A stretch of 55,559 nt of DNA from Candidatus Alectryocaccomicrobium excrementavium (GTDB taxonomy: Bacteria > Bacillota > Clostridia > Christensenellales > Aristaeellaceae). The stretch covers positions 1 through 55,559 of the forward strand of contig DVJN01000222.1 of NCBI GenBank assembly GCA_018716755.1, in the 5' to 3' direction. Of this stretch, positions 390-53,955 are shown piece by piece (the stretch's first letter is position 1; each line of letters begins with the position of its first letter). Position numbers and translations under genes: made by a program. A model generated the notes under the pieces. It was given only the letters and a program-made list of their open reading frames with translations. It was not told the DNA's origin and searched no databases.

Positions 390-1947
390 GGTTTTGCTCC
401 TTTTCCATCAGGGCGAGCGCGCAGCGGATGCCGTCCACCGCCGCCGAGGTGATGCCGCCCGCGTAGCCCGCGCCCTCTCCGCAGGGGAACAGGCCCGCCA
501 GGCTGGCCTGGCAGCGCTCGTCGCGCGGGATGCGCACGGGCGACGAAGAGCGGGTTTCCACGCCCGTGAGCACCGCGTCGTCCGCGGCAAAGCCGCGCAA
601 GCGCCGGTCGAAGAGCCGGATGCCCTCGCGCAGGCCGCGCAGGGCGAAATCCGGCAGGCACTCGTCCAGCCGCCCCCAGGCAACGCCGGGCCGGTACGTG
701 GGCTGCACGCCGCCCGGGCCGCTTGAGGCCTGGCCGCGCAGGAAATCGCCCACCAGCTGCGCGGGCGCGCGATAGCCGCCCAGGGCAAAGGCACGCTGTT
801 CCCACAGCCGCGCGAAGCGCACGCCCGCTAGCGGATCCGCGCCGGGGAAATCCTCCACGCGCACATCCACCAGCACGGCGCTGTTGGCGTTCTCCCCCGC
901 GCGCGCGTGCTCGCTCATGCCGTTGACCACCGTGCCGCCCGCCTCCGAAGCCGCAGCGATGACGCTGCCGCCCGGGCACATGCAAAAGGTGTACACGCCC
1001 CGGCCATCGCCCAGCCGCGCGCTCAGGCGGTATTCCGCCGCGCCCAGCGCCGGATGCCCCGCGAACGCGCCATACTGCGCGCGGTCGATCTGCCGCTGGC
1101 TGTGCTCGATGCGCGCGCCGATGGAAAAGGGCTTGGGCTCCAGGCGCACGCCCGCGCGCAGCAGCATTTCGAACGTATCCCGCGCGCTGTGCCCCACGGC
1201 CAGGATCGCGGCGCGGGCAGGCCATTCCGCCTCCTCGCCGCGCGCGTTGGCCACGCGCAGGCCGCAGAGCGCGCCATTTTCCTGCAAAAGGCCGATGAGC
1301 CGCGTTTGAAAATGGATTTCCCCGCCCAGGGCGAGGATTTTCTCCCGCAGCGCGCGCACCACCTGCCGGAGCCGGTCGGTGCCCACGTGCGGATGGGCCA
1401 TGTACAAAATGTCCTCCGGCGCGCCGCAGGCATGGAGCGTTTGCAGCACGCGCGCGATGTGCGGGCTCTTGATGCCCGTGGTGAGCTTGCCGTCCGAAAA
1501 CGCGCCCGCGCCGCCTTCGCCAAACTGCACGTTGCTCTCCCCGTCCAGCGCGCCCCCCGCCCAGAAGGTTTCCACATCGCGCGAACGCTCTTCCACGCGC
1601 TTGCCGCGCTCGAATATCACGGGCCGCGCGCCCGCCTCCGCCAGGGCGAGCGCGGCGAACAGCCCAGCCGGGCCCAGTCCGATCACCGCCGGGCGCGCGC
1701 GCCACTCCTGCCGGGGCAGGGGCGCGATGGGTGTTTCCCTGGCCTCCTGCGCGCCGGGCACGCGCCGCCGCGTTTCCACATCCAGCGAGTACACAAAGTG
1801 CACGTCACCCCGGTCGCGCGCGTCCACGGATTTTTTGCGCACGCGCACGCGCAGCACCTCGCCCTCGGCGATTTTCAGCGCCCGGGCGGCGACGCGCGCA
1901 AGTGGCGCGTCCAACCCCGCGGACACGTTGTTCACCCGATAAATCAT
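370..1947 (-). CDS. FAD-dependent protein of the COG2509 type (uncharacterised FAD-dependent dehydrogenase)
   Basis: ORF 370..1998, trimmed to MIYRVNNVSAGLD. It has a dinucleotide-binding motif VIGLGPAGLFAALALAEAG and the family-typical NVQFGEGGAGAFSDGKLTT. Its start forms an ATGA overlap with the stop of the upstream gene at 1944-1947. Confidence 0.8.
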   Translation of the reverse strand: MIYRVNNVSAGLDAPLARVAARALKIAEGEVLRVRVRKKSVDARDRGDVHFVYSLDVETRRRVPGAQEARETPIAPLPRQEWRARPAVIGLGPAGLFAALALAEAGARPVIFERGKRVEERSRDVETFWAGGALDGESNVQFGEGGAGAFSDGKLTTGIKSPHIARVLQTLHACGAPEDILYMAHPHVGTDRLRQVVRALREKILALGGEIHFQTRLIGLLQENGALCGLRVANARGEEAEWPARAAILAVGHSARDTFEMLLRAGVRLEPKPFSIGARIEHSQRQIDRAQYGAFAGHPALGAAEYRLSARLGDGRGVYTFCMCPGGSVIAAASEAGGTVVNGMSEHARAGENANSAVLVDVRVEDFPGADPLAGVRFARLWEQRAFALGGYRAPAQLVGDFLRGQASSGPGGVQPTYRPGVAWGRLDECLPDFALRGLREGIRLFDRRLRGFAADDAVLTGVETRSSSPVRIPRDERCQASLAGLFPCGEGAGYAGGITSAAVDGIRCALALMEKEQNHVERSQ

Positions 1948-3167
1948 CTTCGCTTTGCCGCCTCGCTTCCCGCCAGCAAGCCGCTGGCCCAGGCCCATTG
2001 CAGGTTATAGCCGCCGCAGCCGCCGTCTACATTCAGGATTTCGCCCGCCGCGAACAGGCCGGGAACCTTGCGCGACTGCAGCGTGCGCGGATCAAAATCG
2101 CGCGTGTCCAGCCCGCCGGCCATCACCTGCGCGTTGGCGTAGCCCGCGGTGCCCAGCGCAGGCAGCCGCCATTCAAAAAGCAGCGCCTCCAGCGCGCTTA
2201 GCTCCCCCGCCGAAAGCGAACCCGCCGGGCGCGAAAGCGGAGCGATGCCCGCGTTTTTGAGCAGCACCTGGCCCAGGCGCTTGGGCACGAGCCCAGTGAG
2301 AAAATCCTCCAGCGAACGGCCGGCAAGCCGTTCGCGCCGCGCGCGCAAAAAGCCCGGTTCTTCCTCCGGCATGGCGCACACGGCGATTTCCGCGCGCCGC
2401 TTTTCCGCCAGCGCATAGGAGAGCGGCCGCGACACCTGCATCACCGCCGGGCCGGAAACGCCGTAGTCCGCAAAGAGAATTTCCCCCGCTGCGCGCGCGG
2501 CCTCGCGGCCATCCACATACGCGCGCGCCTGTCCTTCCACCCGGATGCCCTTGAGCGCACGCACGGCCTCGGGCGGGGTTTTGATCTGCACCAGCGCGGG
2601 CGCACAGGAAACCAGCCGGTGACCCAGCGCGCGCATCATCTTCAGCCCGCTATCGCTCCCGCCCAGGGCGGGAGCGGCCATGCCGCCCAGCGCGCACACG
2701 ACACTCTTCCCCCAAACCGCGCGGCCATCCCCGGCGCGCGCGCAAAAGCCGCCATGCTGGGCCTCCAGCGCAATGGCGGCGAAATCCGCCACGGTTTCGC
2801 CGCCCGCCTCGGCAAACGCCAGGCGCAACGCATCCACCACGGCGGCGGCCTGATTGCTGCGCGGGAACACGCGTCCGCCGTATTCCTCGCGGCTTTCCAG
2901 CCCGATTTCCCGGAAGAATGCGCGTACCTCTTCCGGCGAAAAGCGCGAAAGCGCACATTCTGCGAACGCGCCATCGCCAAAATAGTCCGCCGCGCGCGCG
3001 CCGGTGTTCGTCAAATTGCAGCGTCCATTGCCCGTAGCCAGCAGGCGTTTGCCCACGCGCGGCAATTTTTCCACGAGGCACACCCGCGCCCCTGCCCGGG
3101 CGGCGGCGATGCCGGCGGCCAATCCCGCCGCGCCTCCGCCCAGCACCAACACATCCGCGCGCCTCAT
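1944..3167 (-). CDS. HI0933/BaiN-family flavoprotein (aminoacetone-oxidase-family FAD-binding enzyme)
   Basis: ORF 1944..3290, trimmed to MRRADVLVLGGGAAGLAAGIAAARAG. The family signature VGKRLLATGNGRCNLTN is present. Its start forms an ATGA overlap with the helD stop at 3164-3167. Confidence 0.85.
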   Translation of the reverse strand: MRRADVLVLGGGAAGLAAGIAAARAGARVCLVEKLPRVGKRLLATGNGRCNLTNTGARAADYFGDGAFAECALSRFSPEEVRAFFREIGLESREEYGGRVFPRSNQAAAVVDALRLAFAEAGGETVADFAAIALEAQHGGFCARAGDGRAVWGKSVVCALGGMAAPALGGSDSGLKMMRALGHRLVSCAPALVQIKTPPEAVRALKGIRVEGQARAYVDGREAARAAGEILFADYGVSGPAVMQVSRPLSYALAEKRRAEIAVCAMPEEEPGFLRARRERLAGRSLEDFLTGLVPKRLGQVLLKNAGIAPLSRPAGSLSAGELSALEALLFEWRLPALGTAGYANAQVMAGGLDTRDFDPRTLQSRKVPGLFAAGEILNVDGGCGGYNLQWAWASGLLAGSEAAKRR

Positions 3168-5302
3168 AGCACGATGCCCAGCTTTTCGATCATTTCGGGC
3201 TCCGTGAGCACCACCAAATGGTGCAGCGCGCGGGAACACGCTGTGTACAGGCGCCGCCGCTCGCCATCGGTGAGCTTTTCTTCGGGCCACACCACCACGA
3301 CGGCGTCGAACTCCATGCCCTTCATCACGTGGTAGCAGCCCACGGCAACATCTGTGGATTCAAACAGCGCGTCGTCGCCGCCGTCCAGCAGATACGCGCC
3401 CTCAATCCTGCGACTGAGCCGGTCCGCCATCTTGGTGGTGCGCGTGACCACGGCCACGCGGTGGTATGCCTTTCGCAAACAGTTCACGGTGGCTACCGCA
3501 TCTTTTTCCGTATAGGCGCGCAACTCAGGCGAAACGCCTTCCCGGCCAAAGGGCACGATTTGATCGCCATCGGGCAAAAGCGCGTTCAAAAAGCGCGTAA
3601 TCGGCAGGCTGGAACGGTAGCAGCGGCCCAGCGTGAGCAGCGGTGCGTTTTCCACCTGGAAGCACGCGCCCCAATTTTCCGGCGCGCAGGGCGGCATACC
3701 GGGGCACGTGCGCTGCTTGGGATCGCCCAGCAGCGTGACCTGCGCCTCGGGATAATACAGCGCCAGCGCGGCGAGCGCCGCATCGGCATAATCCTGCGCC
3801 TCGTCGACGATCATGTGGCGGATCCCCCGGTCGGGCGCGGCAAAGCCCAGATCCAGCATGATATAGGCGATGGCGCCCGCGTCCTCCCACCAGACGCATT
3901 GGGCCTGCGCGTTTTCCCGCGCGGCGGCGGCCAATTCCTCGGGTGCGCCGCGCATCATCTGCGCGAACAGCTCAAGCGGGTGGACTTCCAGCATGCGCCG
4001 GATCTGGCTGCGCACGGGATGCAGCCGCTGCATAACCGCCATGCGCGCCGCCATGGCCAGTTCCTTGCCCTTATAGCGCCCGCTGAACGATTCGGCATAT
4101 TGCTTTTCCAGCGAAGCGCCCCATACCTCCAGCCGCTGCTCCAAAACAGTTTGAATGCGCAAAATGCGCAGCGCGGGCGCGAGCAGGCGGAATTCCTCGC
4201 GATACAGCGCGCGCAGCGAGTCCGCGTCCATCAGCATGCGCTCCTCCAGCTTTATATCGGCAAATTCCGGGCCTTCCTCCCGGTATTGCCGGCAAAACGC
4301 GCGCAGGCGCGCGAGGAACTCCGCGCCGCTCTTATAGCGCACGCTCGCGCGGCGCAGTTCATACCCCGGCTCCATCAGGCGCTCCACCTGCTTGAGCGGC
4401 GGTTCCACTGCCTGCCCCAGAATGGTGCCGAACACTTCGCTCATAGTAGCCGAACGGGTATTCTCTTCTCCCAGCTCTGGCAGCACGGTGGAAATGTATT
4501 CGCTGAACGCGCTGGAGGGCGAAAGGATCACAACGCGCTTCGCGTCCAGCGAATCGCGATAGCGGTACAGCAAATAAGCCGCGCGGTGCATGGCCACAGA
4601 AGTCTTCCCCGAACCCGCCGCGCCCACCACGCACAAAAGGCGCACGTTGTCGTAGCGCACGGCCGCGTTCTGTTCCTTCTGGATGGTGGAAACGATCTGC
4701 CGCATGTGGCTGGTGGTGGCACCGGAAAGGATGTCGAGCAGAATCTCATCGTCAATGGAAACTTCGGTGTCAATATAATACACGAGCCGGCCGTTTTCCA
4801 TTTTATACTGCCGCTTGAGCAGCATTTCACCCCGCATCACGCCTGACGGGCTGTTGTAGGCCACTTCGCCCGGCAGGGAATCGTAATACAGCGAGCACAC
4901 CGGCGCACGCCAATCGTACACCACGCGCTCGCCCGTGGCCGGATCGGTGAGCGAATACAGGCCAATAACGATCTTCTCCACCTCGCTGCCGCCCGCCTCC
5001 CGGAAATCGATGCGGGCAAAAAACGGGTTGAGCAGCATCTGCCGGTACTGGCGCTCGTTTTCCTTGCTCCAGTCGTGCCGCGCGAGAAAGTGGTGCACTT
5101 CCTGCGAAAGCTGCTCCAAATCCTTGGGCGAAAGCGCTGTGGGTTTGAGGCGCAGTTCCTCCCAGGCGTCGGCAAGCATCAGGCGAATGGACTCCATGTG
5201 TTCACCGGCAAAGCCCTTTGCCTTATCAATAGCCGCCGAAAGAAGCTGCTGCACGCGGGCAGCAAATTTTTGCTCCCTCTGTAGCTCTTGCGGTTGCATC
5301 AT
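3164..5302 (-). CDS. helD: HelD-like UvrD-family helicase (RNA polymerase-associated helicase IV type)
   Basis: 712 aa. The N-terminal coiled-coil arm ends in NPFFARIDF. Walker A is GAAGSGKTSVAMHRAAYLLY, and IVDEAQD and a C-terminal GMEFDAVVV helicase motif are present. The RBS is AAGGAGGG upstream of ATGATG. Confidence 0.8.
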   Translation of the reverse strand: MMQPQELQREQKFAARVQQLLSAAIDKAKGFAGEHMESIRLMLADAWEELRLKPTALSPKDLEQLSQEVHHFLARHDWSKENERQYRQMLLNPFFARIDFREAGGSEVEKIVIGLYSLTDPATGERVVYDWRAPVCSLYYDSLPGEVAYNSPSGVMRGEMLLKRQYKMENGRLVYYIDTEVSIDDEILLDILSGATTSHMRQIVSTIQKEQNAAVRYDNVRLLCVVGAAGSGKTSVAMHRAAYLLYRYRDSLDAKRVVILSPSSAFSEYISTVLPELGEENTRSATMSEVFGTILGQAVEPPLKQVERLMEPGYELRRASVRYKSGAEFLARLRAFCRQYREEGPEFADIKLEERMLMDADSLRALYREEFRLLAPALRILRIQTVLEQRLEVWGASLEKQYAESFSGRYKGKELAMAARMAVMQRLHPVRSQIRRMLEVHPLELFAQMMRGAPEELAAAARENAQAQCVWWEDAGAIAYIMLDLGFAAPDRGIRHMIVDEAQDYADAALAALALYYPEAQVTLLGDPKQRTCPGMPPCAPENWGACFQVENAPLLTLGRCYRSSLPITRFLNALLPDGDQIVPFGREGVSPELRAYTEKDAVATVNCLRKAYHRVAVVTRTTKMADRLSRRIEGAYLLDGGDDALFESTDVAVGCYHVMKGMEFDAVVVVWPEEKLTDGERRRLYTACSRALHHLVVLTEPEMIEKLGIVL

Positions 5303-30307: not shown

Positions 30308-30336
30308 TTGACAAGCGCCGCGCCACACGCTATAAT
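30308..30336 (+). promoter_or_regulatory. Consensus sigma-A promoter of csoR (TTGACA-N17-TATAAT)
   Basis: TTGACA at 30308-30313, an exact 17-nt spacer, and TATAAT at 30331-30336. The ATG is 37 nt downstream, with AAGGAG between. Confidence 0.65.
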
Positions 30337-30715: not shown

Positions 30716-30732
30716 GTTTTTATACATTCACC

Positions 30733-30908
30733 GCGCGTTGGTGTGCGCATGGCTTTCCATGCGCGTGAAAAGGGAAGCGGGTGTAAATCCCGCACAGGAC
30801 CGCTACTGTGATTGCTTCGGGCACGGCCCGATCGTTCCGCCACAGTCCACCGGGTTTCGGGAAGGGCGCGGAGCTATACGCATCAGTCAGGAGACCTGCC
30901 AACAGCGC
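30733..30908 (+). promoter_or_regulatory. Cobalamin (B12) riboswitch aptamer
   Basis: The conserved core is GAAAAGGGAAGCGGGTGTAAATCCCGCACAGGACCGCTACTGTGA. A P2-like hairpin GCGCATGG-CTTTCC-ATGCGC is present. The B12 box is AGTCAGGAGACCTGCC at about 30886-30901. P1 pairs GTTGG with CCAAC. It lies upstream of a BtuFCD-like operon. Confidence 0.9.
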
Positions 30909-30983
30909 TTTGGAACATCCCTCGGCATCAGGGGCATTCCATTCGCGCGCCCGGCAAATCCGGGTGCAGGTATGTTTCTGTTG

Positions 30984-31013
30984 CCCGCGTCCATGGAAAA
31001 TGGCGCGGGTTTT
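30984..31013 (+). terminator. Riboswitch expression-platform terminator
   Basis: CCCGCG-T-CCAT / ATGG-CGCGGG stem followed by TTTTG. It lies between the aptamer and the first gene. Confidence 0.6.
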
Positions 31014-31099
31014 GCATTGCCGTGGGTTTACACCGCCATATCGGGCCTTTGTGCCCGATGGGAATACGCGGCAATGCCGCACAAGGAGGTTTTCCAACC

Positions 31100-31996
31100 A
31101 TGAAAAAAACCCTGGCCCTTTTTCTCGCCCTGGCGCTCATGCTCTGCGGCGCGGCCATGGCCGAAACCGTTTATCCCTATACGGTGACGGACATGGGCGG
31201 CAACGAAATCACCATCGAAGAGCAGCCCACCGTGGTGGTCTCCCTCACGCCGAGCAACACGGAAGTGCTCTATGCACTGGGCGCGGGCGCGCTTGTGAAG
31301 GGCGTGGATTCCTACTCCAACTATCCGGCGGAAGCGGCGGAAAACGCGACGATCGTCGGCAGCTATGCAGACACGGACATTGAAGCCGTTCTGGCCCTGG
31401 AGCCGGACGTCGTGTTCGCCGGCGCCGGCACGCTGCAGGAAGAAGCGCGCGCCCAGCTGGCCGATGCGGGCGTAGTCGTTGTGGAATCGGAAGCCATGGA
31501 TTATGCCTCCATTCCCGCCAGCATCCAACTGGTCGCCGGTATTCTGAATATCGACGCGCAACCGCTGCTCACCGAAATGAGCGATAAGGAAGCCGCGCTG
31601 CTCGAATCCGCGCCCGAAGCGGGTTCCTGCACCGTGTATTTCGCCCTCTCTTTTGGCGAGTATGGCGAATGGAGCGCTGGCCCCGGCACCTTTATCGACA
31701 CCATGATTACCATGGCCGGCGGCACGAACATCATGAACGATCCGGAAAATCCCTGGCCGAACCCCTCGCTCGAGAGCATTCTGGAAGCCGACCCGGATGT
31801 TATCCTCGTTTCCGGCGGCGATGAAATGGCCCAGCTTTTGCTGGAAGGCGACGCCTATCAGGATCTGACCGCCGTTCAAAACGGGCATGTTTATGGCGTG
31901 GACGCGGATATGTCCAACCGGCCCGGCCCGCGCATCGTGGATTCGCTCGGCGAATTTGTGGCCGCGATCAACGACGCGCTCGCGGCGGAAGAATAA
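31100..31996 (+). CDS. ABC transporter substrate-binding protein, cobalamin/siderophore (BtuF/FhuD cluster A) type
   Basis: Trimmed to MKKTLALFLALALMLCGAAMA (signal peptide), after AAGGAGG. The motifs SLTPSNTEVLYALGAG and the C-terminal PGPRIVDSLGEF are typical of BtuF-like PBPs. Confidence 0.85.
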   Translation: MKKTLALFLALALMLCGAAMAETVYPYTVTDMGGNEITIEEQPTVVVSLTPSNTEVLYALGAGALVKGVDSYSNYPAEAAENATIVGSYADTDIEAVLALEPDVVFAGAGTLQEEARAQLADAGVVVVESEAMDYASIPASIQLVAGILNIDAQPLLTEMSDKEAALLESAPEAGSCTVYFALSFGEYGEWSAGPGTFIDTMITMAGGTNIMNDPENPWPNPSLESILEADPDVILVSGGDEMAQLLLEGDAYQDLTAVQNGHVYGVDADMSNRPGPRIVDSLGEFVAAINDALAAEE

Positions 31997-37987: not shown

Positions 37988-39385
37988 ATGAAACCGTTTA
38001 TGGACAAAAATTTTCTTTTAAAGAATGAAACGGCCCGGCGCCTGTACGCTGTGGCGGAAACGATGCCCATCATCGATTACCACTGCCACCTGAGCCCCCA
38101 GGAAATCGCGGAAAACATCCCATTCCGCAACATCGGCCATTTGATGCTCGGCGGCGATCACTACAAGTGGCGGCTGATGCGCGCCTTTGGCATCGACGAA
38201 AAATTCATCTGCGGGGACGCGAGCGATTACGACAAATTCCTCGCTTACGCCCGCATGCTGCCATATGCCATTGGCAACCCGCTGTATCACTGGACGCACC
38301 TGGAATTGCGCCGCGTTTTCGGCATCGAAGACGTCTTGAACGAGGCGTCCGCGCCCTCCATCTGGGAGAGGGCGAACGCGCTGCTGGCCACGGAAGAGTA
38401 CCGTGCCAAGGGGCTGATTCGCCGTTTCAATGTAGAAGTCATCTGCACGACGGATGATCCCATCGATTCGCTGGAATCCCACCGGGCCATCGCCCGGGAC
38501 GGCGCGTTCGCCACCCGCGTGCTGCCCGCTTTCCGGCCCGACCGGGCCATCAATGCCGCTCGGGCCGGTTTCAGAGAATATATGCAAAAACTCAGCGAGG
38601 TTTCCGGCGTGGACATCCGCACGACCGATGATGTAGTCGAAGCGCTGTCCCGGCGCATAGAATATTTCCACGCCTGCGGCGCGCGCATCAGCGATCACGG
38701 GCTGGACAGCGTGCCGCACGCCTGCTTTGACAGGAGCAAAGCCGACCGTGCGCTCGCCGCGGGCCTCATGGGCCATGCGGTGCGCGCCGGGGATCTGGAC
38801 GCTTACCGCACGCTCGTGCTCGTGGCGTTGGGCAATGTCTACCACAAAATGGGCTGGGCGCAGCAATACCACCTCGGCGCGCTGCGCAGCAACAACAGGC
38901 GCATGTTCGAGCGTCTCGGCCCTGACACTGGCTTCGATTCCGTCGCCGACGCGCCCTTCGCCCACGACCTCAGCCGCATCCTGGACGCGCAGGACGCTAC
39001 CGCCTCTTTACCCAAAACCGTGCTCTATTGCCTCAATGGCACAGCCAATCCCGTCATCGCCACGATGGCCGGCAACTTCCAGGGCGACGGCATCCGCGGC
39101 AAAATCCAGTTTGGCAGCGGCTGGTGGTTCTGCGATACGCTCCCCGGCATGGTCGATCAAATGACCTCTCTGGCCAGTCTGGGGCTGCTCTCGCAATTCG
39201 TGGGCATGCTCACGGACTCGCGTTCCTTTGTGAGCTATCCCCGCCACGAATATTTCCGCCGCATCCTGTGCAACCTCATCGGCGAATGGGTGGAAAACGG
39301 CGAATACCCCGCCGATATGGAAGCGCTGGAAACCATGGTAAAGGACATTTGCTACTACAACGCCAAGCGCTATTTCGGCCTATAA
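37988..39385 (+). CDS. uxaC: Glucuronate isomerase
   Basis: 465 aa. It has the classical UxaC N-terminus FMDKNFLLKNETARRLY...PIIDYHCHLSPQEIAEN, later GNPLYHWTHLELRR, and WWF near the C-terminus. The RBS is GGAGG. Confidence 0.9.
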   Translation: MKPFMDKNFLLKNETARRLYAVAETMPIIDYHCHLSPQEIAENIPFRNIGHLMLGGDHYKWRLMRAFGIDEKFICGDASDYDKFLAYARMLPYAIGNPLYHWTHLELRRVFGIEDVLNEASAPSIWERANALLATEEYRAKGLIRRFNVEVICTTDDPIDSLESHRAIARDGAFATRVLPAFRPDRAINAARAGFREYMQKLSEVSGVDIRTTDDVVEALSRRIEYFHACGARISDHGLDSVPHACFDRSKADRALAAGLMGHAVRAGDLDAYRTLVLVALGNVYHKMGWAQQYHLGALRSNNRRMFERLGPDTGFDSVADAPFAHDLSRILDAQDATASLPKTVLYCLNGTANPVIATMAGNFQGDGIRGKIQFGSGWWFCDTLPGMVDQMTSLASLGLLSQFVGMLTDSRSFVSYPRHEYFRRILCNLIGEWVENGEYPADMEALETMVKDICYYNAKRYFGL

Positions 39386-42300
39386 TCCATCAAACAAACT
39401 GAGCTGTTCCGCCGCCGGCGCGCGCATGCGCGCCGGTATGTTTGCCCGGCGTACATCGCCGGGCAATTCCTGCATAAAGGGCGAATACGCCCCGGCAGCG
39501 GTGAGGATCAGTTCCTCCCGGGCGCGCGTGAGCCCTACGAAGAACAACCTCCGTTCCTCCTCCACATCGCAGGGTTCGCCCTCCCGCTCCAGCGGCAGCG
39601 CACCCTCGCTTACCCCCGCAAGGAACACCACAGGGAATTCCAGGCCCTTCGCGCCATGCAGGGTCATCAGCTGCACCGCGCCGGAAACATAGCTTCTGCC
39701 CGAAGCGCGGCGAATATCCGCCTCCTCGCCGGTGGCCAACAGGCCGAGGAACGACGGCATATCCTGAGCAAATGCCGCCGCAGCCAGCAGCTTTTCCATG
39801 GCGGGATTCTTTCCATGCTCCGCGCTCCAGTTCTCCAGCAGCTTGCGCGGCTTTTCTTTTTCCGCACGGGGCGCAAATTCCAGCGCATCGCGCGCCCACA
39901 GTGCCAACGCGCCCATGTCTCCTACCCCCTGGGCAAAGGCGAGCGGCGAATCCGCCGCGGCATATGCCCGCGCGGCGGCGTCCGCCTCCTCCACCGGGCA
40001 GCCATAGCCCAGCCGCAACGCGAGCGAAAGCGCTGCCGCATCCCTTTCAAGCAGAGACGCAAAGAATCCTATCGCCGCGCGCACAGCGTCATCCTGCAAA
40101 AAATCGCCGCGCCCCGCGATCACGCAGGGGATATCGTCGTGCCGCAGGCAGGCTTCAATGGTTTCCAGCTGGCGGCGCGTGCGGCACAGCACTGCAATTT
40201 CTGAAAAGGCGCGCGCCGTTTCCCGCGCGCTTCCCCCATGTGCGGCGAGCATATCCATGCCGCCGGTCAGGCGGCCGATCTCCTTGGCGATGAAAACGCC
40301 CTCCGAAAACGCGTCCGGCGCGAGCAGCGCCCGCACGGCTTCCCCCGAAGGCCGCATGGCGCGCAATTGCCGTTCCCCGCCGGGATTGGCACGGATGGCG
40401 CTTTGCGCCGCGGCAAGGATCTGCGGCGTAGAGCGGTAGTTCTCCCGCAGGCGGATGGTCTGCAAATCCGGCCAGTCGCGCGCAAGCGCCGCGAAGCAAC
40501 CCGCGTCCGCACCCCGAAAGCCGTAAATTGATTGATCCGGGTCGCCAATGACAAAGAGCGATTGGCCGAACGAGGCGAAGTGCTTCACCAGCACGCGCTG
40601 GACGCCATTGATATCCTGAAATTCATCCACGAGCACATGCGTAAACGCGCGCTTACCGGACAGATCCTTCTCCAGCGCTTCCAGCAGCACATCGTCCAGG
40701 TCCCGGGCGTCCAGTTCCGTCAGCCGGGCCTGATAGGCGCGGTACAATTCCGGCGAAAGTTCCTCGCTTTCCAGACTCGCGCCATTTTTCACCCGGGAAA
40801 CCCGCTCCACGAGCTCGCGGGGCGAGATTCCTTTGTGCCCTTGCGCTTCCAGCACGCCGCGCGCCACATCGCGCGCTTCGCTCTCGCCCAAAATGGGCTT
40901 TTTTTCCAGCAGCGCCAGGCAAATGGCGTGGAACGTGCCAATGTTCATACCGCGCACAGCCTTTTTGCCGCCCAGGCGCGCTTCCAGGCGCGCGCGCATT
41001 TCCCCCGCCGCCTGGCGCGTGAAGGTCACAGCGGTGATTTCCGAAGGCTTCGCGCCGCGTTCTTCCACCAAATACGCAATGCGCTCCACGAGGGTGAAAG
41101 TCTTGCCCGTGCCCGGCCCCGCGATCACGGCCACATGCGGTGCATTCGTTTCCACAGCCTGCCGCTGTTCCGCGTTGAGGCCCGCCGCGGCTTCTTCCCG
41201 TGCCGCGGCCAACAGCGGCGCAGCCGGAAGCGCTTCCCGTGCCCGTTTTTCTTTTTGGGCATTTTCCTGCGCGCGCTTTTCGCGCGCCGCGTCCACGGGC
41301 GAAAGGCCAGGCATGGCCAGTTGCCCTTCCAGCATGGCGAGTTCTCCCGGCTCAAACAGCGAAATTTCCCCATACTCTCCATCGAACCCGCCCTTGCGGC
41401 GCACCCGGCCCGCGCGCAGGCGGCGCACGCCTTCCGCCGCAGCAAAGCCCGCCACGCGCTCAATATCCGCCGGATCCGTTGCGCGCAGGATGTGCATCTC
41501 ATCGCCCAGCGCGCGCAGGAGCGAAAGGTACGCTTCCTGCACGCGGCGGCTGGCCACCCCCGCGCCCATGGACGCGGCCAAAAGCTCCGGCAGGGGCACG
41601 AGGCTTTCAAATGGCTTCGCGCCCTCCGGCCGCACGCCTTCCGGCCGGCTGGCCAGAGCTTCCACGCGGTGCAAAACGCCGATGGTCAGCCGCCGCCCAC
41701 ACACGGGGCACACATCCCCCAGTTTGCGCGCCTCGCCAGGTTCCAGGCAAACGCCGCAGTTGCGGTGCCCATCCAGATGGTATTTGCCCTCTTCCGGATA
41801 AAATTCCAGCGTGCCGAGGAAGCCTTCGCCCGTGGCGATCGCCCGCGACAGCGCGGGATAGGAAAGCCCACAACCCAGCAGATTGGCTTCCCGGCCAAGC
41901 TTGGCAGGCGAATGCGCATCCGAATTGGAAACGAGCGTGCGGCCATCCAGATCCGATACGCGCCAGTTCATCGGCGGATCGGAAGAAAGGCCGGTTTCCA
42001 CCGCGTGGATCTCGCCCGCCAGGTCATCAAAGCATTCTTCCAGGCTGTCGAAGCCGGAAAACGCGCCCAGCAGGGAAAAATGCGGCGTCCAGATATGCGC
42101 AGGAATGAAAATAGCAGACGGGCAGGCGTCCAGCGTGATTTCGAGCAAATCGCGGCAGTCCAGCCCCAAAATCGGCCTGCCATCCGAATGGATATTGCCA
42201 ATGGCTTCCAACCGTTGCGACAGGGTCTGCGTGCTTTCCAGATCCGGCAGGAGAATCACGCTGTGTACTTTGCGGGTTTTGCCGTTCTTTTTATAAATGG

Positions 42301-42568
42301 AGCTGATTTCACCGCTGATCACAAAGCGCGGCGCCTCCCCCTGCACCTCGCAGGGCATGCGCTGATCCGCTTTCAGCGTGTACAGCCCTTCTTCCGCGGG
42401 TTCCAACGCGCTTTGCAATTCCTCGCGCCATGCGGGATGGGTGAAGTCCCCCGTCGCAACCAGGCCGAGGCCCTTGCGCCGCGCCCACAAATCCAGGTGC
42501 GGAAGATCGAGATCGCGGCTGGTCGCGCGGGAATATTTGGAATGAATGTGCAAATCCGCTATGTACAT
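39380..42568 (-). CDS. Fusion protein: an N-terminal EndoQ-like PHP-domain nuclease with a zinc ribbon, and a C-terminal UvrD/PcrA-type SF1 helicase
   Basis: ORF 39380..42625, trimmed to MYIADLHIHSKYSRATSRD, after ACAGGGGA. The PHP metal motifs are DLHIHS, GDFTHP and SNSDAHSP. The Zn ribbon is HRNCGVCLEPGEARKLGDVCPVCGRRLTIGVLHRVEAL. The helicase motifs are AGPGTGKTF, VDEFQDIN, GDPDQSIYGFRGA, NYRSTPQIL, TLHGAKGLEFPVVFL and FFVGLTRAREEL. It overlaps the uxaC 3' end by 6 nt (convergent). Confidence 0.75.
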   Translation of the reverse strand: MYIADLHIHSKYSRATSRDLDLPHLDLWARRKGLGLVATGDFTHPAWREELQSALEPAEEGLYTLKADQRMPCEVQGEAPRFVISGEISSIYKKNGKTRKVHSVILLPDLESTQTLSQRLEAIGNIHSDGRPILGLDCRDLLEITLDACPSAIFIPAHIWTPHFSLLGAFSGFDSLEECFDDLAGEIHAVETGLSSDPPMNWRVSDLDGRTLVSNSDAHSPAKLGREANLLGCGLSYPALSRAIATGEGFLGTLEFYPEEGKYHLDGHRNCGVCLEPGEARKLGDVCPVCGRRLTIGVLHRVEALASRPEGVRPEGAKPFESLVPLPELLAASMGAGVASRRVQEAYLSLLRALGDEMHILRATDPADIERVAGFAAAEGVRRLRAGRVRRKGGFDGEYGEISLFEPGELAMLEGQLAMPGLSPVDAAREKRAQENAQKEKRAREALPAAPLLAAAREEAAAGLNAEQRQAVETNAPHVAVIAGPGTGKTFTLVERIAYLVEERGAKPSEITAVTFTRQAAGEMRARLEARLGGKKAVRGMNIGTFHAICLALLEKKPILGESEARDVARGVLEAQGHKGISPRELVERVSRVKNGASLESEELSPELYRAYQARLTELDARDLDDVLLEALEKDLSGKRAFTHVLVDEFQDINGVQRVLVKHFASFGQSLFVIGDPDQSIYGFRGADAGCFAALARDWPDLQTIRLRENYRSTPQILAAAQSAIRANPGGERQLRAMRPSGEAVRALLAPDAFSEGVFIAKEIGRLTGGMDMLAAHGGSARETARAFSEIAVLCRTRRQLETIEACLRHDDIPCVIAGRGDFLQDDAVRAAIGFFASLLERDAAALSLALRLGYGCPVEEADAAARAYAAADSPLAFAQGVGDMGALALWARDALEFAPRAEKEKPRKLLENWSAEHGKNPAMEKLLAAAAFAQDMPSFLGLLATGEEADIRRASGRSYVSGAVQLMTLHGAKGLEFPVVFLAGVSEGALPLEREGEPCDVEEERRLFFVGLTRAREELILTAAGAYSPFMQELPGDVRRANIPARMRAPAAEQLSLFDGL

Positions 42569-42616
42569 ATAATAATCCCCTGTTCTTTCCGGCTTTCGTG
42601 CTGCGCCAATGGCAGT

Positions 42617-42645
42617 ATTATACACCGGAAACCCGGGGGATGCAA
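42617..42645 (-). promoter_or_regulatory. Putative dedicated promoter of the EndoQ-UvrD fusion gene (TTGCAT-N17-TATAAT)
   Basis: On the reverse strand, TTGCAT lies at 42645..42640, followed by an exact 17-nt spacer and TATAAT at 42622..42617. It lies about 50 nt upstream of the ATG. Confidence 0.5.
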
Positions 42646-42658
42646 TCGCGCTTCTCTA

Positions 42659-43903
42659 TTATTTTCCAGGCGCGAGGGGCAAAAGAACGGCCATTTCCGT
42701 GCCCATTCGCGCGTCGCTGCGGGCCAAAATTTTCCCACCATGCCGCTTGACAATATCCTGCGCTATGGAAAGGCCCAGGCCATAGCCGCTCTGCCCGCTG
42801 CGCGCTGCGTCCGTGCGGTAAAAACGCTCAAAAATATGCTGCAATTCTTCCGGCGGAATCACTGTTCCCGTGTTGTTTACCGTTAGGCGGGCTTTCCCCT
42901 GGCGCACACAAAGCGACACGCGCACGCTTCCCTTCGCTCCCGCATATTTGCACGCATTGTCCAGCAAAATTGCGACGAGCTGCTTAAGGCGCGCCTCATC
43001 GCCCATCACGAAAACGCCGGGATGCACGTCGCTTTCAAAGGCCAGTCCCGCCTCGTAAGCGACGGGTTCAAATGAAAGCGCGCACCCCTGCGCGAGTTCG
43101 CTGAGCGAAACCCGCGTCCGTTCCATAGGCACGCGCGCATCGTCTGAGCGGGCCAGATAGAGCAGATCGTCCACCAGTTTTTTCATGCGCATACCCTCGT
43201 CGCGCGCGTTTTCCACCCAGGTTGCCTGCGCGCCGACCGTACTCTCTGGGTGCGCGGTGAGAATGCCCAAATTGGCCAGCATCACAGTGAGCGGCGTCTT
43301 CAATTCATGTGAAGCATCCGCCACAAAGCGGCGCTGCTGCGCCCAGGCGCGCTCCACCGGCGCAAGCGCCAGGCGCGAAAGCAAAAAGGAAACCAAAAAG
43401 AAGGCGAGCAGGCTGGCCAGCCCCGCCAGTCCCAGGGTGAAATATGTTTGCCGCAGCGAGGCGAATTCGTTCTCCAGCGACACAAAAGCAATGCGGATAT
43501 TCCCATCCTCCTGCCTGATGCAGCGGTACGCCAGCGCCGTTCCCCACAAAACGCCCTGGGATTCTCCCCGGGCTACGATCCGCTCCACCGCCGCGCCAAT
43601 CCACTGCTCGTCCACTTCCACGCGCCGCGCATCCAAAGAAAGGATCTCGCCTTTCCCATTGATCACCACGCGGAACGCGGGCAACAGCGGCGTGCTTCCC
43701 TCCGCCTCTTCGCGCTCGGGTCCAAGGGGCACGCGCCACTCCTCCTCTTCCACCCGCTGCAATTCCACGCGCAACGCGCGATCGCACTCGCTCATCACCT
43801 GGTCATATGCTTCCACGCCCACAATAACGAGCACCGCTGCGAGCACCAGGCTGGCCAGCAGCATGGCCACCACCACAAAGCGAACGCGCAATTGGCGAAT
43901 CAT
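42659..43903 (-). CDS. Sensor histidine kinase (two TM helices, HisKA, HATPase_c)
   Basis: 414 aa. The H-box is FVADASHELKTPLT, the N-box is LLDNACKYA, and the G-boxes are GYGLGLSIA. Its ATGA overlaps the response regulator stop. Confidence 0.9.
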   Translation of the reverse strand: MIRQLRVRFVVVAMLLASLVLAAVLVIVGVEAYDQVMSECDRALRVELQRVEEEEWRVPLGPEREEAEGSTPLLPAFRVVINGKGEILSLDARRVEVDEQWIGAAVERIVARGESQGVLWGTALAYRCIRQEDGNIRIAFVSLENEFASLRQTYFTLGLAGLASLLAFFLVSFLLSRLALAPVERAWAQQRRFVADASHELKTPLTVMLANLGILTAHPESTVGAQATWVENARDEGMRMKKLVDDLLYLARSDDARVPMERTRVSLSELAQGCALSFEPVAYEAGLAFESDVHPGVFVMGDEARLKQLVAILLDNACKYAGAKGSVRVSLCVRQGKARLTVNNTGTVIPPEELQHIFERFYRTDAARSGQSGYGLGLSIAQDIVKRHGGKILARSDARMGTEMAVLLPLAPGK

Positions 43904-44574
43904 GGCCGCATCTCCAGCCGGTAGCCAATCCGCCGCACGGCAGTGATGGATACCCGCGAGCCCAGAAAAGACAGCTTCTTGCGCGAAAAGGAGATATACG
44001 CTTCCACATTGTTGTCCACGGCGTCACTTTCCGCGCCCCATACCTTCACCAGAATATCCTCCTTGGGCACGATGGCCGCGCTGCGTGCAAGCAGCATGCG
44101 CAGCACTTCGAATTCTTTATAGCCCAACCGCACGCTTTTGATGCCACAGGAAAGTTCGCAGGTGGCGAGGTTCAGCCGCACATCGCCAAATTCCATGCTC
44201 TCCATCACCACTTCGCCCTGGCGGCGGAGCAACGCGCGCACACGGGCCAAAAGTTCCTCGGGCGCGAAGGGCTTGGTCATGTAATCGTCCGCGCCGCTAT
44301 CCAGCCCATTGACCTTGCTGGATAGCTCGTCGCGCGCAGTGAGCATCAAAACCGGCGTGGCAAGGTTAGCGGCGCGCATCGCGCGTGCGACGGCGAATCC
44401 ATCCGCGCCCGGCAGCATCACATCCAGGATCACCAGATCGTATTGACCGCTGAGCGCATAATCGCGCCCTTCCGCGCCATCGTAAACGGTTTCCACTGCA
44501 TATCTCTGCTCCCGCAGGATCTCCGCCAACGCCTGCGCCAGCCGCTTTTCATCCTCCACCACCAAAATGCGCAT
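43900..44574 (-). CDS. OmpR-family response regulator
   Basis: 224 aa. It starts MRILVVEDE, has a receiver Asp in LVILDVMLPG, and a winged-helix C-terminus ending in RRIGYRL. The RBS is GAGGAAGGA. Confidence 0.9.
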   Translation of the reverse strand: MRILVVEDEKRLAQALAEILREQRYAVETVYDGAEGRDYALSGQYDLVILDVMLPGADGFAVARAMRAANLATPVLMLTARDELSSKVNGLDSGADDYMTKPFAPEELLARVRALLRRQGEVVMESMEFGDVRLNLATCELSCGIKSVRLGYKEFEVLRMLLARSAAIVPKEDILVKVWGAESDAVDNNVEAYISFSRKKLSFLGSRVSITAVRRIGYRLEMRP

Positions 44575-49710: not shown

Positions 49711-49739
49711 TTGAAATCTTGCGCATTCACAGGTATAAT
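49711..49739 (+). promoter_or_regulatory. Near-consensus promoter (TTGAAA-N17-TATAAT) placed so that transcription would start at the ATG of the next gene
   Basis: TTGAAA at 49711-49716, an exact 17-nt spacer, and TATAAT at 49734-49739. The A of the ATG (49746) is 7 nt after the -10. Confidence 0.5.

Positions 49740-52441: not shown

Positions 52442-53955
<1,514 letters not shown>

What the first reader, a model, noticed from the sequence alone, without database searches (positions are those of the whole stretch)
39380..42645. Single-polypeptide fusion of an EndoQ-like lesion endonuclease to a complete UvrD/PcrA helicase, with its own promoter
One uninterrupted 1063-codon ORF contains both parts.

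Residues 1 to about 400 carry PHP-type metal motifs (MYIADLHIHSKYSRATSRD, GDFTHPAW, SNSDAHSPAKLGRE). They also carry a zinc ribbon, HRNCGVCLEPGEARKLGDVCPVCGRRLTIGVLHRVEAL. From memory, that combination is the hallmark of endonuclease Q. EndoQ cleaves 5' of dU, hypoxanthine and AP sites, and was characterised as a stand-alone enzyme of about 400 aa in Pyrococcus furiosus and Bacillus pumilus.

After an Ala/Glu/Arg-rich low-complexity linker (about aa 430-480) comes a full SF1A helicase. Its motifs are AGPGTGKTF, VDEFQDIN, GDPDQSIYGFRGA, NYRSTPQIL, TLHGAKGLEFPVVFL and FFVGLTRAREEL.

Joining a deaminated-base nuclease covalently to a helicase would couple incision to strand displacement in one protein. 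I am not aware of any biochemical description of such a pathway.

The gene has a good dedicated promoter (TTGCAT-N17-TATAAT). It converges on uxaC with a 6-nt overlap and no terminator between them.
Basis: partly seen in the sequence, partly recalled or inferred. Interest (0 to 1): 0.72.

Follow-up and report, generated by a model that had tools for sequence, protein, structure and literature searches.

The report
EndoQ nuclease fused to UvrD-type helicase
This gene really does encode one protein joining a damaged-base-nicking enzyme (endonuclease Q) to a DNA-unwinding motor, but the fusion is common in gut Clostridia and other bacteria and was already listed in a 2016 paper, so what remains open is how the two halves work together.

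Summary
A 1062-codon ORF lies on the minus strand at 39380..42568 and is intact on independent assemblies. Residues 4-406 are a full-length endonuclease Q (EndoQ) homolog: PDB E = 4e-41, model TM 0.84-0.86 to PfuEndoQ, and all metal ligands, lesion-pocket residues and the Cys4 site present. Residues about 462-1025 are a complete SF1A UvrD/PcrA-type helicase core. It is not the PcrA ortholog and has no room for a long C-terminal domain.

The fusion is not rare. 74 of 78 informative species-level genome loci carry it, and at least 597 GTDB species encode a close relative of its EndoQ half. Shiraishi et al. 2016 already tabulated about 34 bacterial EndoQ homologs whose QL[SD]LF beta-clamp motif lies at residues 941-1244. 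None has been characterised biochemically in the literature I could search.

My additions:
- Both halves keep their catalytic residues across 75 proteins.
- There are two clamp-binding-like motifs, one at the extreme C-terminus (73/75) and one at the EndoQ/helicase junction. Both sit in predicted disordered segments.
- There is no conserved operon partner, and the EndoQ domain is absent from phages and almost absent from plasmids.

Most likely function: a clamp-tethered nick-then-unwind repair enzyme for dU, dI and AP sites. This is a member of a known but uncharacterised family, of moderate interest.

The parts
39380..42568 (-). Complete CDS: 1062 aa plus a TAG stop at 39380-39382. EndoQ-UvrD-type helicase fusion protein.
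   Evidence: ORF list. Start supported by homolog N-termini. Identical product on independent contigs.
42617..42645 (-). Promoter-like site TTGCAT-N17-TATAAT: perfect -10, TTG of the -35, 49 nt upstream of the ATG.
   Evidence: Sequence. TTG-N20-TATAAT occurs 6 times against 0.08 expected in the window. Not called by the stricter consensus scan.
42576..42581 (-). Ribosome-binding site AGGGGA, 7 nt before the ATG.
   Evidence: Sequence read directly.
41351..42568 (-). EndoQ module (aa 1-406): PHP catalytic domain, Zn-binding domain and C-terminal helical domain.
   Evidence: PDB PfuEndoQ E = 4e-41 over the full length. TIGR00375 matched end to end at 154 bits. Pfam PF27218 MJ0043_C. Model TM 0.84-0.86 to 5zb8 and 7k30. 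Catalytic residues invariant in 75/75 relatives.
41699..41758 (-). Cys4 zinc site (C271, C274, C287, C290) of the EndoQ Zn-binding domain.
   Evidence: Aligned to the four PfuEndoQ cysteines. C271, C287 and C290 are 75/75 and C274 is 63/75 in the family.
41186..41350 (-). Junction and low-complexity linker (aa 407-461), predicted disordered.
   Evidence: Column identity 0.19-0.38. pLDDT below 50 at 416-432 and 442-455.
41309..41326 (-). Internal clamp-binding-like motif position (aa 415-420, GQLAMP). It is degenerate in this protein; the family consensus is G-Q-[LMIVT]-S-[LF]-F.
   Evidence: G415 and Q416 75/75, S418 56/75, [LF]419 67/75, F420 62/75. The window is the only sequence with P at 420.
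39494..41185 (-). SF1A UvrD/PcrA/Rep-type helicase core (aa 462-1025), motifs Q, I, Ia, II, III, IV, V and VI. The Walker A motif AGPGTGKT is at aa 483-490.
   Evidence: Pfam PF00580 2e-53 and PF13361 3.6e-37. PcrA 1pjr 1.3e-65. Foldseek UvrD, PcrA and Rep E = 1e-37 to 1e-33. Motifs nearly invariant in 75 proteins.
39383..39493 (-). Short C-terminal tail (aa 1026-1062), poorly conserved apart from the terminal motif. Too short for a Tudor-like domain.
   Evidence: Median of 41 residues after motif VI in the family. pLDDT below 50 at 1048-1062.
39392..39406 (-). C-terminal beta-clamp-binding-like motif QLSLF (aa 1055-1059), a canonical QL[SD]LF.
   Evidence: 73/75 family members have Q-x-x-[LMIF]-[FLM] in the last 25 aa, and in 40 of them it ends the protein exactly. 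68/75 match the stricter regex, against tail shuffles with mean 1.3 and maximum 9. The same motif is tabulated for long bacterial EndoQ homologs in Shiraishi 2016 Suppl. Fig. S1.

Best explanation
The gene encodes a chromosomal DNA-repair enzyme of the long-form bacterial endonuclease Q family.

Shown by sequence and model: an intact EndoQ module, an intact SF1A helicase motor, and two short QLSLF-type motifs in disordered segments.

Inferred mechanism:
1. The QLSLF-type motif or motifs tether the protein to the beta sliding clamp on DNA, in the way the PIP box tethers archaeal EndoQ to PCNA.
2. The EndoQ module flips out a deaminated or lost base (dU, dI, dX or an AP site) and cuts the phosphodiester bond immediately 5' of it. 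This leaves a 3'-OH and a 5'-phosphate that carries the lesion.
3. The attached 3'-to-5' helicase is now positioned at its own nick. It loads on the intact strand and unwinds past the lesion, peeling the damaged strand off 5'-end first. This is the geometry PcrA uses at a RepD nick, and UvrD uses at a nick lying 5' of a mismatch.
4. A clamp-bound polymerase extends the 3'-OH. A 5' flap nuclease or 5' exonuclease removes the displaced strand, and ligase seals the gap.

In archaea, step 3 is attributed to strand-displacing PolB plus Fen1. In this protein it would be built in.
For: EndoQ identity: PDB E = 4e-41 over the full length; model TM 0.84-0.86 to 5zb8 and 7k30.

EndoQ catalytic competence: metal ligands H7, H9, E87, H102, H158, D217 and H219, and pocket residues T161, E191, G193, L194 and S195, are invariant in 75/75 fused proteins. 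Their roles are taken from Miyazono 2018.

Helicase competence: motifs I-VI are nearly invariant; Pfam and PDB matches.

Selection on the fusion as a unit: 74 of 78 informative GTDB loci are one ORF. All 120 best 90%-identity clusters are 1035-1099 aa with 98-100% query coverage. 125 of the 150 best 50%-identity representatives are 900 aa or longer. Divergence of the two halves is correlated (r = 0.75).

Clamp tethering: the C-terminal motif is in 73/75 proteins and the junction motif in nearly all, far above controls. Both lie in segments with pLDDT below 50. The published precedent is that the PIP box is needed for PCNA binding and for the 6-7-fold stimulation of archaeal EndoQ, and that clamp motifs were noted in bacterial homologs.

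Housekeeping character: no match in 50,697 phage records and 1 in 72,556 plasmids. The window neighbours are metabolic and regulatory genes. The four most recurrent neighbours elsewhere are YaaA, an Nth-like HhH-GPD protein, OGG and Ogt.

Nick chemistry, and the suggestion that a helicase removes the damaged stretch, come from Shiraishi 2015.
Against: No activity has been measured for any fused member, so lesion specificity, helicase polarity, clamp binding and cis-coupling are all inferred.

The AlphaFold model gives pTM 0.52 with a disordered linker. No defined interface places the nuclease site next to the helicase DNA channel.

The window protein's own internal motif is degenerate (GQLAMP; it is the only one of 75 with P in place of F), so in this protein only the C-terminal motif is canonical.

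The repair-gene neighbours occur in only 3-4 of 79 loci each.

Bacteria with Pol I could in principle process an EndoQ nick by nick translation without a helicase, so why a motor is needed is not explained.

TIGR00375 is matched below its curated cut-off (154 against 326.6 bits).
Confidence: 0.6

Rival explanations
1. The helicase half is not a strand-displacement motor for excision. It acts as a translocase that helps the nuclease, either by scanning DNA for lesions, by stripping proteins (RecA filaments or stalled RNA polymerase) from the damaged site as UvrD and PcrA do, or by driving release of EndoQ from its nicked product to hand it over.
For: UvrD and PcrA have well-established protein-displacement roles (general knowledge of the family). 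The model shows two independent modules on a flexible tether and no fixed interface (pTM 0.52). The 2B-like region (aa 841-900) is the least conserved part of the motor (0.15-0.33 column identity), and in SF1A helicases that region regulates unwinding versus translocation.
Against: The fused helicase has only about 41 residues after motif VI, leaving no room for a C-terminal RNA-polymerase-binding domain of the kind PcrA carries (general knowledge). Nothing in the sequence distinguishes translocation from unwinding. All unwinding motifs are conserved.
Confidence: 0.2
2. It is an anti-phage or anti-foreign-DNA nuclease-helicase that destroys uracil- or hypoxanthine-containing invading DNA, rather than repairing the host chromosome.
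For: Nuclease-helicase fusions and UvrD-like helicases are common in defence systems, and the helicase half matches GajB models (best 3e-67). [quoted passage not shown]
Against: The PADLOC hits cover only aa 461-1026 and score lower than PcrA (225 against 295 bits), so they reflect generic UvrD similarity. No PADLOC model hits the EndoQ part. The EndoQ domain is absent from 50,697 phage records and found on 1 of 72,556 plasmids. The gene is present in at least 597 species-level genomes at 62-72% identity, which looks like a broadly retained core gene and not a patchy defence island. Neighbours are housekeeping or repair genes with no defence partners. The clamp-binding motifs point to the host replisome or repair machinery.
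Confidence: 0.1
3. The two halves work independently. The fusion merely ensures co-expression or co-localisation at the clamp, and there is no mechanistic coupling between nicking and unwinding.
For: The linker is disordered and poorly conserved, and pTM is 0.52. Stand-alone EndoQ forms at about 65-68% identity, with no helicase gene within about 6 kb, exist in the same clade (L060 and L065; also P0085 and P0018). The stand-alone Bacillus enzymes are active on their own.
Against: The fused state is retained in 74 of 78 species-level loci and across families of Clostridia. According to the 2016 table the long form occurs in many phyla. Only one split gene was seen (L012). Divergence of the halves is correlated (r = 0.75).
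Confidence: 0.1

Closest known systems
Endonuclease Q: P. furiosus / T. kodakarensis EndoQ (PDB 5ZB8, 7K30-33) and the stand-alone B. pumilus / B. subtilis enzymes
   Same: Same three-domain module (PHP catalytic domain, Zn-binding domain, C-terminal helical domain). It aligns end to end (E = 4e-41; TM 0.84-0.86). All metal ligands, most lesion-pocket residues and the Cys4 site are conserved. A clamp-interaction motif follows the module, in the position where archaeal EndoQ has its PIP box.
   Different: About 29% identity to PfuEndoQ. Pocket and loop substitutions L168 to T and W144 to H are fixed in all 75 relatives. The motif is a bacterial QLSLF-type motif and not a PIP box. A 600-aa helicase is attached, which the characterised enzymes lack.
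Long-form bacterial EndoQ homologs listed by Shiraishi et al. 2016 (Sci Rep 6:25532, Suppl. Fig. S1), e.g. Clostridiales bacterium 1_7_47FAA WP_008716654; probably one of the bacterial 'families by domain organization' of Shiraishi et al. 2017
   Same: Their clamp motif lies at residues 941-1244, which fits the same overall length as this protein. They have the same QL[SD]LF-type motif at the extreme C-terminus and include a Clostridiales member. This protein is most simply a further member of that group.
   Different: That supplement does not mention a helicase and lists one motif per protein. The 2017 paper that defines the families could not be read here, so the equivalence is inferred from length and motif position. 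None of the long forms was assayed.
PcrA / UvrD / Rep SF1A helicases
   Same: Same motor core with all motifs. PcrA 1pjr 1.3e-65, and Foldseek TM 0.57-0.69 normalised to the target.
   Different: Far below the equivalog cut-offs for PcrA, UvrD and Rep, so it is a paralog. Only about 41 residues follow motif VI, ending in a clamp motif and not a C-terminal domain. The 2B-like region is divergent. An N-terminal nuclease is attached.
Nickase-directed loading of SF1A helicases: RepD/RepC-PcrA in rolling-circle plasmid replication, and MutL-UvrD in mismatch repair (general knowledge)
   Same: A site-specific nick is followed by a 3'-to-5' helicase unwinding from that nick while the 3'-OH is extended. 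This is the working model proposed here.
   Different: In those systems the nickase or loader and the helicase are separate proteins, and the nick is defined by sequence or mismatch and not by a lesion. Here the two are covalently joined. The coupling has not been demonstrated.
Helicase-nuclease fusions AddA / RecB / AdnB
   Same: A UvrD-like SF1A motor and a nuclease in one polypeptide. They are weaker structural matches to the helicase half (Foldseek E = 1e-26 to 1e-19).
   Different: Those carry a C-terminal PD-(D/E)XK nuclease, act at double-strand ends within multi-subunit complexes, and are not lesion-specific. Here the nuclease is an N-terminal PHP-type lesion-specific nickase.

Membership tests
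Endonuclease Q (EndoQ; TIGR00375 / Pfam MJ0043_C) | PHP-type catalytic site with metal ligands equivalent to Pfu H8, H10, E76, H84, H139, D193 (and H195) | tested here: met
   Aligned residues H7, H9, E87, H102, H158, D217 and H219 are present and invariant in 75/75 fused relatives. The residue list comes from Miyazono 2018.
Endonuclease Q (EndoQ; TIGR00375 / Pfam MJ0043_C) | Zn-binding domain with four cysteines | tested here: met
   C271, C274, C287 and C290 align to the Pfu cysteines. In the family they are 75/75, 63/75, 75/75 and 75/75.
Endonuclease Q (EndoQ; TIGR00375 / Pfam MJ0043_C) | Lesion-recognition pocket (Pfu H139, T142, E167, L168, G169, L170, S171, N191, D193) | tested here: met
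   H158, T161, E191, G193, L194, S195, N215 and D217 are conserved. L168 is replaced by T192 in all 75, and N215 is H in 9/75.
Endonuclease Q (EndoQ; TIGR00375 / Pfam MJ0043_C) | Whole three-domain fold, as opposed to a generic PHP esterase | tested here: met
   Sequence alignment covers Pfu residues 5-384 of 400, and no other PHP protein has E below 0.4. The model has TM 0.84-0.86 and about 3.2 A rmsd to 5zb8 and 7k30, with no PolX or HisPPase in the top 50.
Endonuclease Q (EndoQ; TIGR00375 / Pfam MJ0043_C) | Curated NCBIfam TIGR00375 score cut-off (326.6 bits) | tested here: not met
   154.2 bits, although profile positions 2-374 of 374 are matched end to end. The precomputed Pfam PF27218 MJ0043_C hit is unmarked, i.e. 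strong. NCBI names close relatives 'endonuclease Q family protein'.
Endonuclease Q (EndoQ; TIGR00375 / Pfam MJ0043_C) | Cleavage immediately 5' of dU, dI, dX or an AP site | not testable with these tools
   This needs enzyme assays. Only the stand-alone archaeal and Bacillus enzymes have been assayed.
Endonuclease Q (EndoQ; TIGR00375 / Pfam MJ0043_C) | Sliding-clamp interaction motif after the catalytic module (PIP box in archaea; QL[SD]LF noted in bacterial homologs) | tested here: met
   QLSLF at aa 1055-1059. The family shows it in 73/75 at the C-terminus and nearly universally at the junction, both well above controls. Literature precedent. Actual binding is untested, and the window's junction copy is degenerate.
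SF1A UvrD/Rep/PcrA helicase superfamily | Motifs Q, I (Walker A), Ia, II (DExx), III, IV, V and VI, and Pfam UvrD-helicase plus UvrD_C above their gathering scores | tested here: met
   PF00580 182 bits (cut-off 23) and PF13361 129 bits (cut-off 25.6). Motifs located and nearly invariant. Foldseek UvrD, PcrA and Rep E = 1e-37 to 1e-33.
PcrA (TIGR01073) / UvrD (TIGR01075) / Rep (TIGR01074) orthologs | Equivalog score cut-offs (911, 1144 and 951 bits) and a C-terminal extension | tested here: not met
   295, 250 and 250 bits respectively. A median of only 41 residues follows motif VI. It is a paralog and not the housekeeping PcrA.
Gabija GajB or other PADLOC defence helicases | A specific model match plus the partner gene (GajA) or a defence-island context | tested here: not met
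   GajB hits cover only the helicase half and score lower than PcrA. Neighbours are uxaC, an aldolase, ABC transporters and a two-component system. No conserved partner in 79 loci. The EndoQ domain is absent from phages and almost absent from plasmids.

The most novel reading that the evidence does not exclude
The long-form EndoQ is a self-contained, beta-clamp-tethered 'nick-and-unwind' excision machine. A lesion-specific 5' incision directly loads and activates the covalently attached SF1A helicase in cis, and its two QLSLF-type motifs (junction and C-terminus) can engage the two clefts of one clamp dimer. This helicase-dependent alternative excision pathway would then be a major route for removing uracil, hypoxanthine and AP sites in many anaerobic gut bacteria. 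No such single-polypeptide pathway has been shown biochemically.
Probability: 0.4. Interest if true: 0.55.

Novelty: new member of a known kind. Interest (0 to 1): 0.4.

Why it matters
EndoQ-initiated repair has been worked out only for the stand-alone archaeal and Bacillus enzymes, and what happens after the nick is still a proposal (strand-displacing polymerase plus Fen1, or EndoV plus 'a helicase').

The fused form appears to be the commonest bacterial version. At least 597 species-level genomes encode a close relative of its EndoQ half, and 74 of 78 sampled loci are fused. These include many human- and animal-gut Oscillospiraceae, Lachnospiraceae and Christensenellales. This form carries its own helicase and clamp-binding motifs.

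Characterising one member would show:
- whether the downstream step of alternative excision repair can be hard-wired into the nuclease;
- how an SF1A helicase is activated by a covalently attached nickase, as opposed to MutL or RepD acting in trans;
- how gut anaerobes deal with cytosine and adenine deamination.

It would also allow a large set of proteins now labelled only 'UvrD-helicase domain-containing protein' to be annotated properly.

Tried and rejected
1. Frameshift or assembly chimera. Rejected: the identical ORF occurs on independent assemblies and 74 species-level loci are fused.

2. Short database entries. The first search with the EndoQ part alone listed only 400-750-aa proteins, which suggested that stand-alone or half-fused forms dominate. 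On inspection many were out-of-frame tails, contig-end cuts or internally duplicated mis-assemblies (P0029, P0036, P0040, P0046, P0001, P0005). The full-length query corrected the picture.

3. Generic PHP esterase. Rejected.

4. Defence system. PADLOC gives only generic UvrD similarity, and the phage and plasmid searches are essentially negative.

5. Conserved operon partner. Clustering all flanking ORFs of 79 loci found none; the largest cluster occurs in 4 loci.

6. Consensus promoter scan. It found nothing in 39000-43000. A relaxed pattern with a shuffle control showed that the site is non-random.

7. Literature. Shiraishi et al. 2017 (doi 10.1080/09168451.2016.1277946) and Shiraishi & Iwai 2020 (PMC6941527) are not held, so I could not confirm that one of the three 'families by domain organization' is explicitly described as helicase-fused. 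A search for TIGR00375 found no papers.

8. Stand-alone forms as ancestors. Stand-alone forms in this clade stop at or before the junction motif (for example P0014...GGQL|CSAP...). I read them as secondary truncations, but did not test this phylogenetically.

9. Organism. The window's own species is not among the best 80 GTDB loci (the best is 72% identity, a Ruthenibacterium sp. MAG), so the organism is placed only loosely, among Clostridia with Oscillospirales- and Christensenellales-type relatives.

Full report
**1. The observation**

The region holds one long ORF on the minus strand. The mechanical ORF runs 39380..42625 from a GTG (1081 aa). The ATG at 42568 follows an AGGGGA ribosome-binding site and gives MYIADLHIHS..., the N-terminus used by all homologs.

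The exact 1062-aa product is in public collections, in a 90%-identity cluster of 20 members. It is also encoded, with the same neighbours, on independent metagenome assemblies (L081 and L082). A sequencing frameshift or chimera is therefore excluded.

**2. Flanks**

- Downstream, uxaC (37988..39385, +; Pfam UxaC 8e-204) converges on the gene. The overlap is exactly 6 nt, made of the two stop codons and each gene's last sense codon.
- Upstream lie a histidine kinase (42659..43903, -) and a response regulator (43900..44574, -), separated from the gene by a 90-nt gap.
- That gap contains TTGCAT-N17-TATAAT at 42617..42645. The strict consensus scan did not call it, because TTGCAT matches only 3 of 6 positions of TTGACA. 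However, TTG-N20-TATAAT occurs six times in the window against 0.08 expected from shuffles, so the site is not chance.
- Terminator-like hairpins are at chance level (6 found, 5.5 expected). None separates the kinase gene from this gene, so read-through transcription is also possible.

**3. The N-terminal half is EndoQ**

- Against all PDB sequences, the only significant hits for aa 1-430 are P. furiosus EndoQ chains (5zb8, 7k30-33): E = 4e-41, query 4-406 against chain 5-384 of 400. The next hit has E = 0.43.
- NCBIfam TIGR00375 is matched end to end but below its cut-off (154 against 326.6 bits).
- The precomputed Pfam family PF27218 is MJ0043_C, and NCBI names close relatives 'endonuclease Q family protein'.
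- The metal ligands and pocket residues defined by Miyazono et al. 2018 are all present.
- An AlphaFold2 model of the whole protein (41-sequence alignment, mean pLDDT 81.6) superposes on 5zb8 and 7k30 with target-normalised TM 0.84-0.86 and about 3.2 A rmsd. No generic PHP enzyme appears among the top 50 structural matches.

**4. The C-terminal half is an SF1A helicase core**

- Pfam UvrD-helicase 2e-53 and UvrD_C 3.6e-37.
- PcrA 1pjr 1.3e-65, and UvrD1, UvrD and Rep slightly weaker.
- Foldseek UvrD, PcrA and Rep at E = 5e-37 to 1e-33.
- It is not the housekeeping PcrA. It scores 295 bits against the PcrA equivalog cut-off of 911, and it is likewise far below the UvrD and Rep cut-offs.
- Only about 41 residues follow motif VI, so there is no room for a long C-terminal domain.

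**5. How common is the fusion?**

- Full-length query: all 120 best 90%-identity clusters are 1035-1099 aa at 58-64% identity (two closer, at 88% and 100%) with 98-100% query coverage, and nearly all are annotated with MJ0043_C as well as UvrD-helicase and UvrD_C. The few that carry names are called 'UvrD-helicase domain-containing protein' or 'hypothetical protein', from Agathobaculum, Flavonifractor, Oscillibacter and Christensenellales-type MAGs.
- 50%-identity representative library (1.84 billion proteins): the EndoQ part has 3646 relatives at E of 1e-3 or better and 1065 at 1e-30 or better. 125 of the best 150 are 900 aa or longer.
Of the best 80, 74 are a single fused ORF (953-1183 aa), 3 are stand-alone with no helicase gene detected in the downstream flank (6 kb for L060 and L065, about 0.45 kb for L032), 1 is split and 2 are cut by the contig end.
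- An earlier search with the EndoQ part alone was misleading. It listed many 400-750-aa entries that turned out to be frameshifted, cut or mis-assembled.

**6. Is each half functional?**

In an alignment of the window protein with the 74 fused GTDB proteins:
- EndoQ ligands H7, H9, E87, H102, H158, D217 and H219, and pocket residues T161, E191, G193, L194 and S195, are invariant (75/75).
- Three of the four Zn cysteines are invariant and the fourth is 63/75.
- Helicase motifs I-VI are nearly invariant.
- The EndoQ half averages 67% identity to the window protein and the helicase half 49%. The two co-vary (r = 0.75).
- The least conserved parts are the linker (aa 421-460) and a 2B-like stretch (aa 841-900).

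**7.

The protein ends in ...AEQLSLFDGL, and QL[SD]LF is the bacterial beta-clamp-binding consensus.

- C-terminal copy. 68 of 75 family members match Q[LIVMF]x[LIVMF][FLWY] in their last 25 residues. The expectation from motif density in the protein cores is 0.005 per tail, and tail shuffles give a mean of 1.3 and a maximum of 9. With a slightly looser pattern the count is 73/75, and in 40 of them the motif is exactly C-terminal.
- Junction copy. It sits at a fixed place 20 residues after the DGEYG that ends the EndoQ module: G415 and Q416 in 75/75, S418 in 56/75, [LF]419 in 67/75 and F420 in 62/75. The window protein is the only one with P at 420 (GQLAMP), so its internal copy is degenerate.
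- Both motifs lie in segments with pLDDT below 50 (416-432 and 1048-1062), as expected for short linear binding motifs.

**8. Literature**

- Function. EndoQ cuts immediately 5' of dI, dU, dX and AP sites. It was characterised in P. furiosus and T. kodakarensis, and later in B. pumilus and B. subtilis.
- Clamp. Archaeal EndoQ binds PCNA through a C-terminal PIP box (KD 55 nM for the T. kodakarensis enzyme). PCNA stimulates P. furiosus EndoQ 6-7-fold.
- Precedent. The same 2016 paper states that beta-clamp consensus motifs occur at the C-terminal region of bacterial homologs. Its Supplementary Fig. S1 tabulates 10 short homologs (motif at about 401-464) and about 34 long ones (motif at residues 941-1244) from many phyla, including Clostridiales bacterium 1_7_47FAA (QLSLF at 1113-1117). 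The long form and its terminal motif were therefore already catalogued. The short-form motif position coincides with the junction motif of the fused proteins. This suggests the fusion is a short EndoQ with its clamp motif, joined through a linker to a UvrD-type helicase with its own clamp motif.
- Families. Miyazono et al. 2018 say EndoQ proteins fall into three families 'based on the domain organization', two of them bacterial, citing Shiraishi et al. 2017. I could not read that paper.
- No biochemistry. No paper in the searchable library describes biochemistry of a helicase-fused EndoQ.

**9. Context and rivals**

- Window neighbours are metabolic or regulatory genes.
- Across 79 loci no neighbour is conserved. 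The four most recurrent clusters (3-4 loci each) are YaaA, an Nth-like HhH-GPD glycosylase, an OGG-type glycosylase and Ogt/MGMT. The association is weak but consistently points to base-damage repair.
- PADLOC matches only generic GajB/UvrD models on the helicase half.
- The EndoQ domain has no match in 50,697 phage records and one match in 72,556 plasmids, a stand-alone copy on a 733-kb Brevibacillus replicon.

These results argue against a mobile defence module and for a chromosomal maintenance gene.

**10. Mechanism**

Shown: the parts and their conservation.

Inferred:
1. Clamp tethering through the QLSLF-type motif or motifs.
2. A lesion-specific nick 5' of the damaged nucleotide.
3. Loading of the attached 3'-to-5' helicase on the intact strand, so that it unwinds past the lesion and displaces the damaged strand 5'-end first. 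PcrA uses this geometry at a RepD nick, and UvrD uses it at a nick 5' of a mismatch (general knowledge).
4. Gap filling by a clamp-bound polymerase, removal of the flap, and ligation.

Shiraishi et al. 2015 had proposed either strand-displacement synthesis plus Fen1, or removal 'by helicase activity', as the step after the nick.

Caveats:
- The model gives pTM 0.52 with a disordered linker, so no fixed nuclease-helicase interface is predicted.
- Stand-alone EndoQ enzymes work without a helicase.
- No fused member has been assayed.
- The alternatives are a translocase or turnover role for the motor, independent action of the halves, and defence. I rate these at about 0.2, 0.1 and 0.1.

**11. 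Verdict**

The gene is a further member of a large family that was already listed but has not been characterised biochemically. It is not a newly discovered architecture. Interest is moderate. The open and testable question is whether nicking and unwinding are coupled in cis at the sliding clamp.

Noticed in passing
window 41309-41326 (-), aa 415-420: The window protein is the only one of 75 fused family members with proline in place of the conserved phenylalanine in the internal clamp-like motif (GQLAMP against the consensus GQ-x-S-[LF]-F). Its C-terminal QLSLF is canonical. This lineage may rely on the terminal motif alone.
   Followed up: partly
window 3164-5302 (-): A second SF1 UvrD-like gene in the window is a HelD-type RNA-polymerase recycling motor (NCBIfam HelD_BACSU, 428 bits against a cut-off of 419). 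It is unrelated to the finding.
   Followed up: partly
window 30722-30917 (+): A cobalamin riboswitch (Rfam RF00174, 82.7 bits, E = 6.5e-19) lies directly upstream of a periplasmic-binding-protein gene (Peripla_BP_2; ORF listed as 30812..31996). The listed TTG start overlaps the riboswitch, so the true start is probably further downstream.
   Followed up: no
window 13374-15869 (+) and 27168-30179 (+): Two large ORFs (831 and 1003 aa) have no Pfam match at E of 1e-5 or better. The second has only a weak, partial similarity to an alpha-L-rhamnosidase model (35.7 bits against a cut-off of 1300).
   Followed up: partly
window 1-4000: GC content is 0.67-0.71 here, against 0.55-0.65 in the rest of the window. 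The genes are FAD-dependent oxidoreductase-like (370..1998 and 1944..3290, both on the minus strand).
   Followed up: no
window 6819-6847 (-), 17077-17105 (+), 30308-30336 (+), 42617-42645 (-), 49711-49739 (+), 52438-52466 (+): TTG-N20-TATAAT occurs six times against 0.08 expected by chance. Several copies lie just upstream of ORF starts (for example 6780, 42568 and 52495), so this looks like the organism's main promoter signature.
   Followed up: partly
L012 (6001-7400 and 6892-8685); proteins P0014, P0047, P0044; L032, L060, L065: Within the fused clade there is one split gene: in L012 the EndoQ ORF stops at 464 aa and the helicase continues in another frame. There are also several stand-alone forms of about 405-433 aa that end at or just before the junction motif. 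They look like secondary truncations or losses of the helicase. In L060 the stand-alone gene is followed by an Nth-like glycosylase gene.
   Followed up: partly
proteins P0001, P0005, P0029, P0036, P0046 (public database entries): Several close homologs in the public protein collection carry internal duplications, out-of-frame C-terminal tails or deleted helicase cores. These are probably assembly or gene-calling artefacts, and they distort length-based surveys of this family.
   Followed up: partly
L043 (MAG labelled Treponema sp. UBA4873) and L076 (Syntrophomonadaceae MAG): Fused copies with EndoQ halves 67% and 62% identical to the window's occur in MAGs labelled outside the Oscillospiraceae, Lachnospiraceae and Christensenellales. 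This could reflect horizontal transfer or mis-binning.
   Followed up: no
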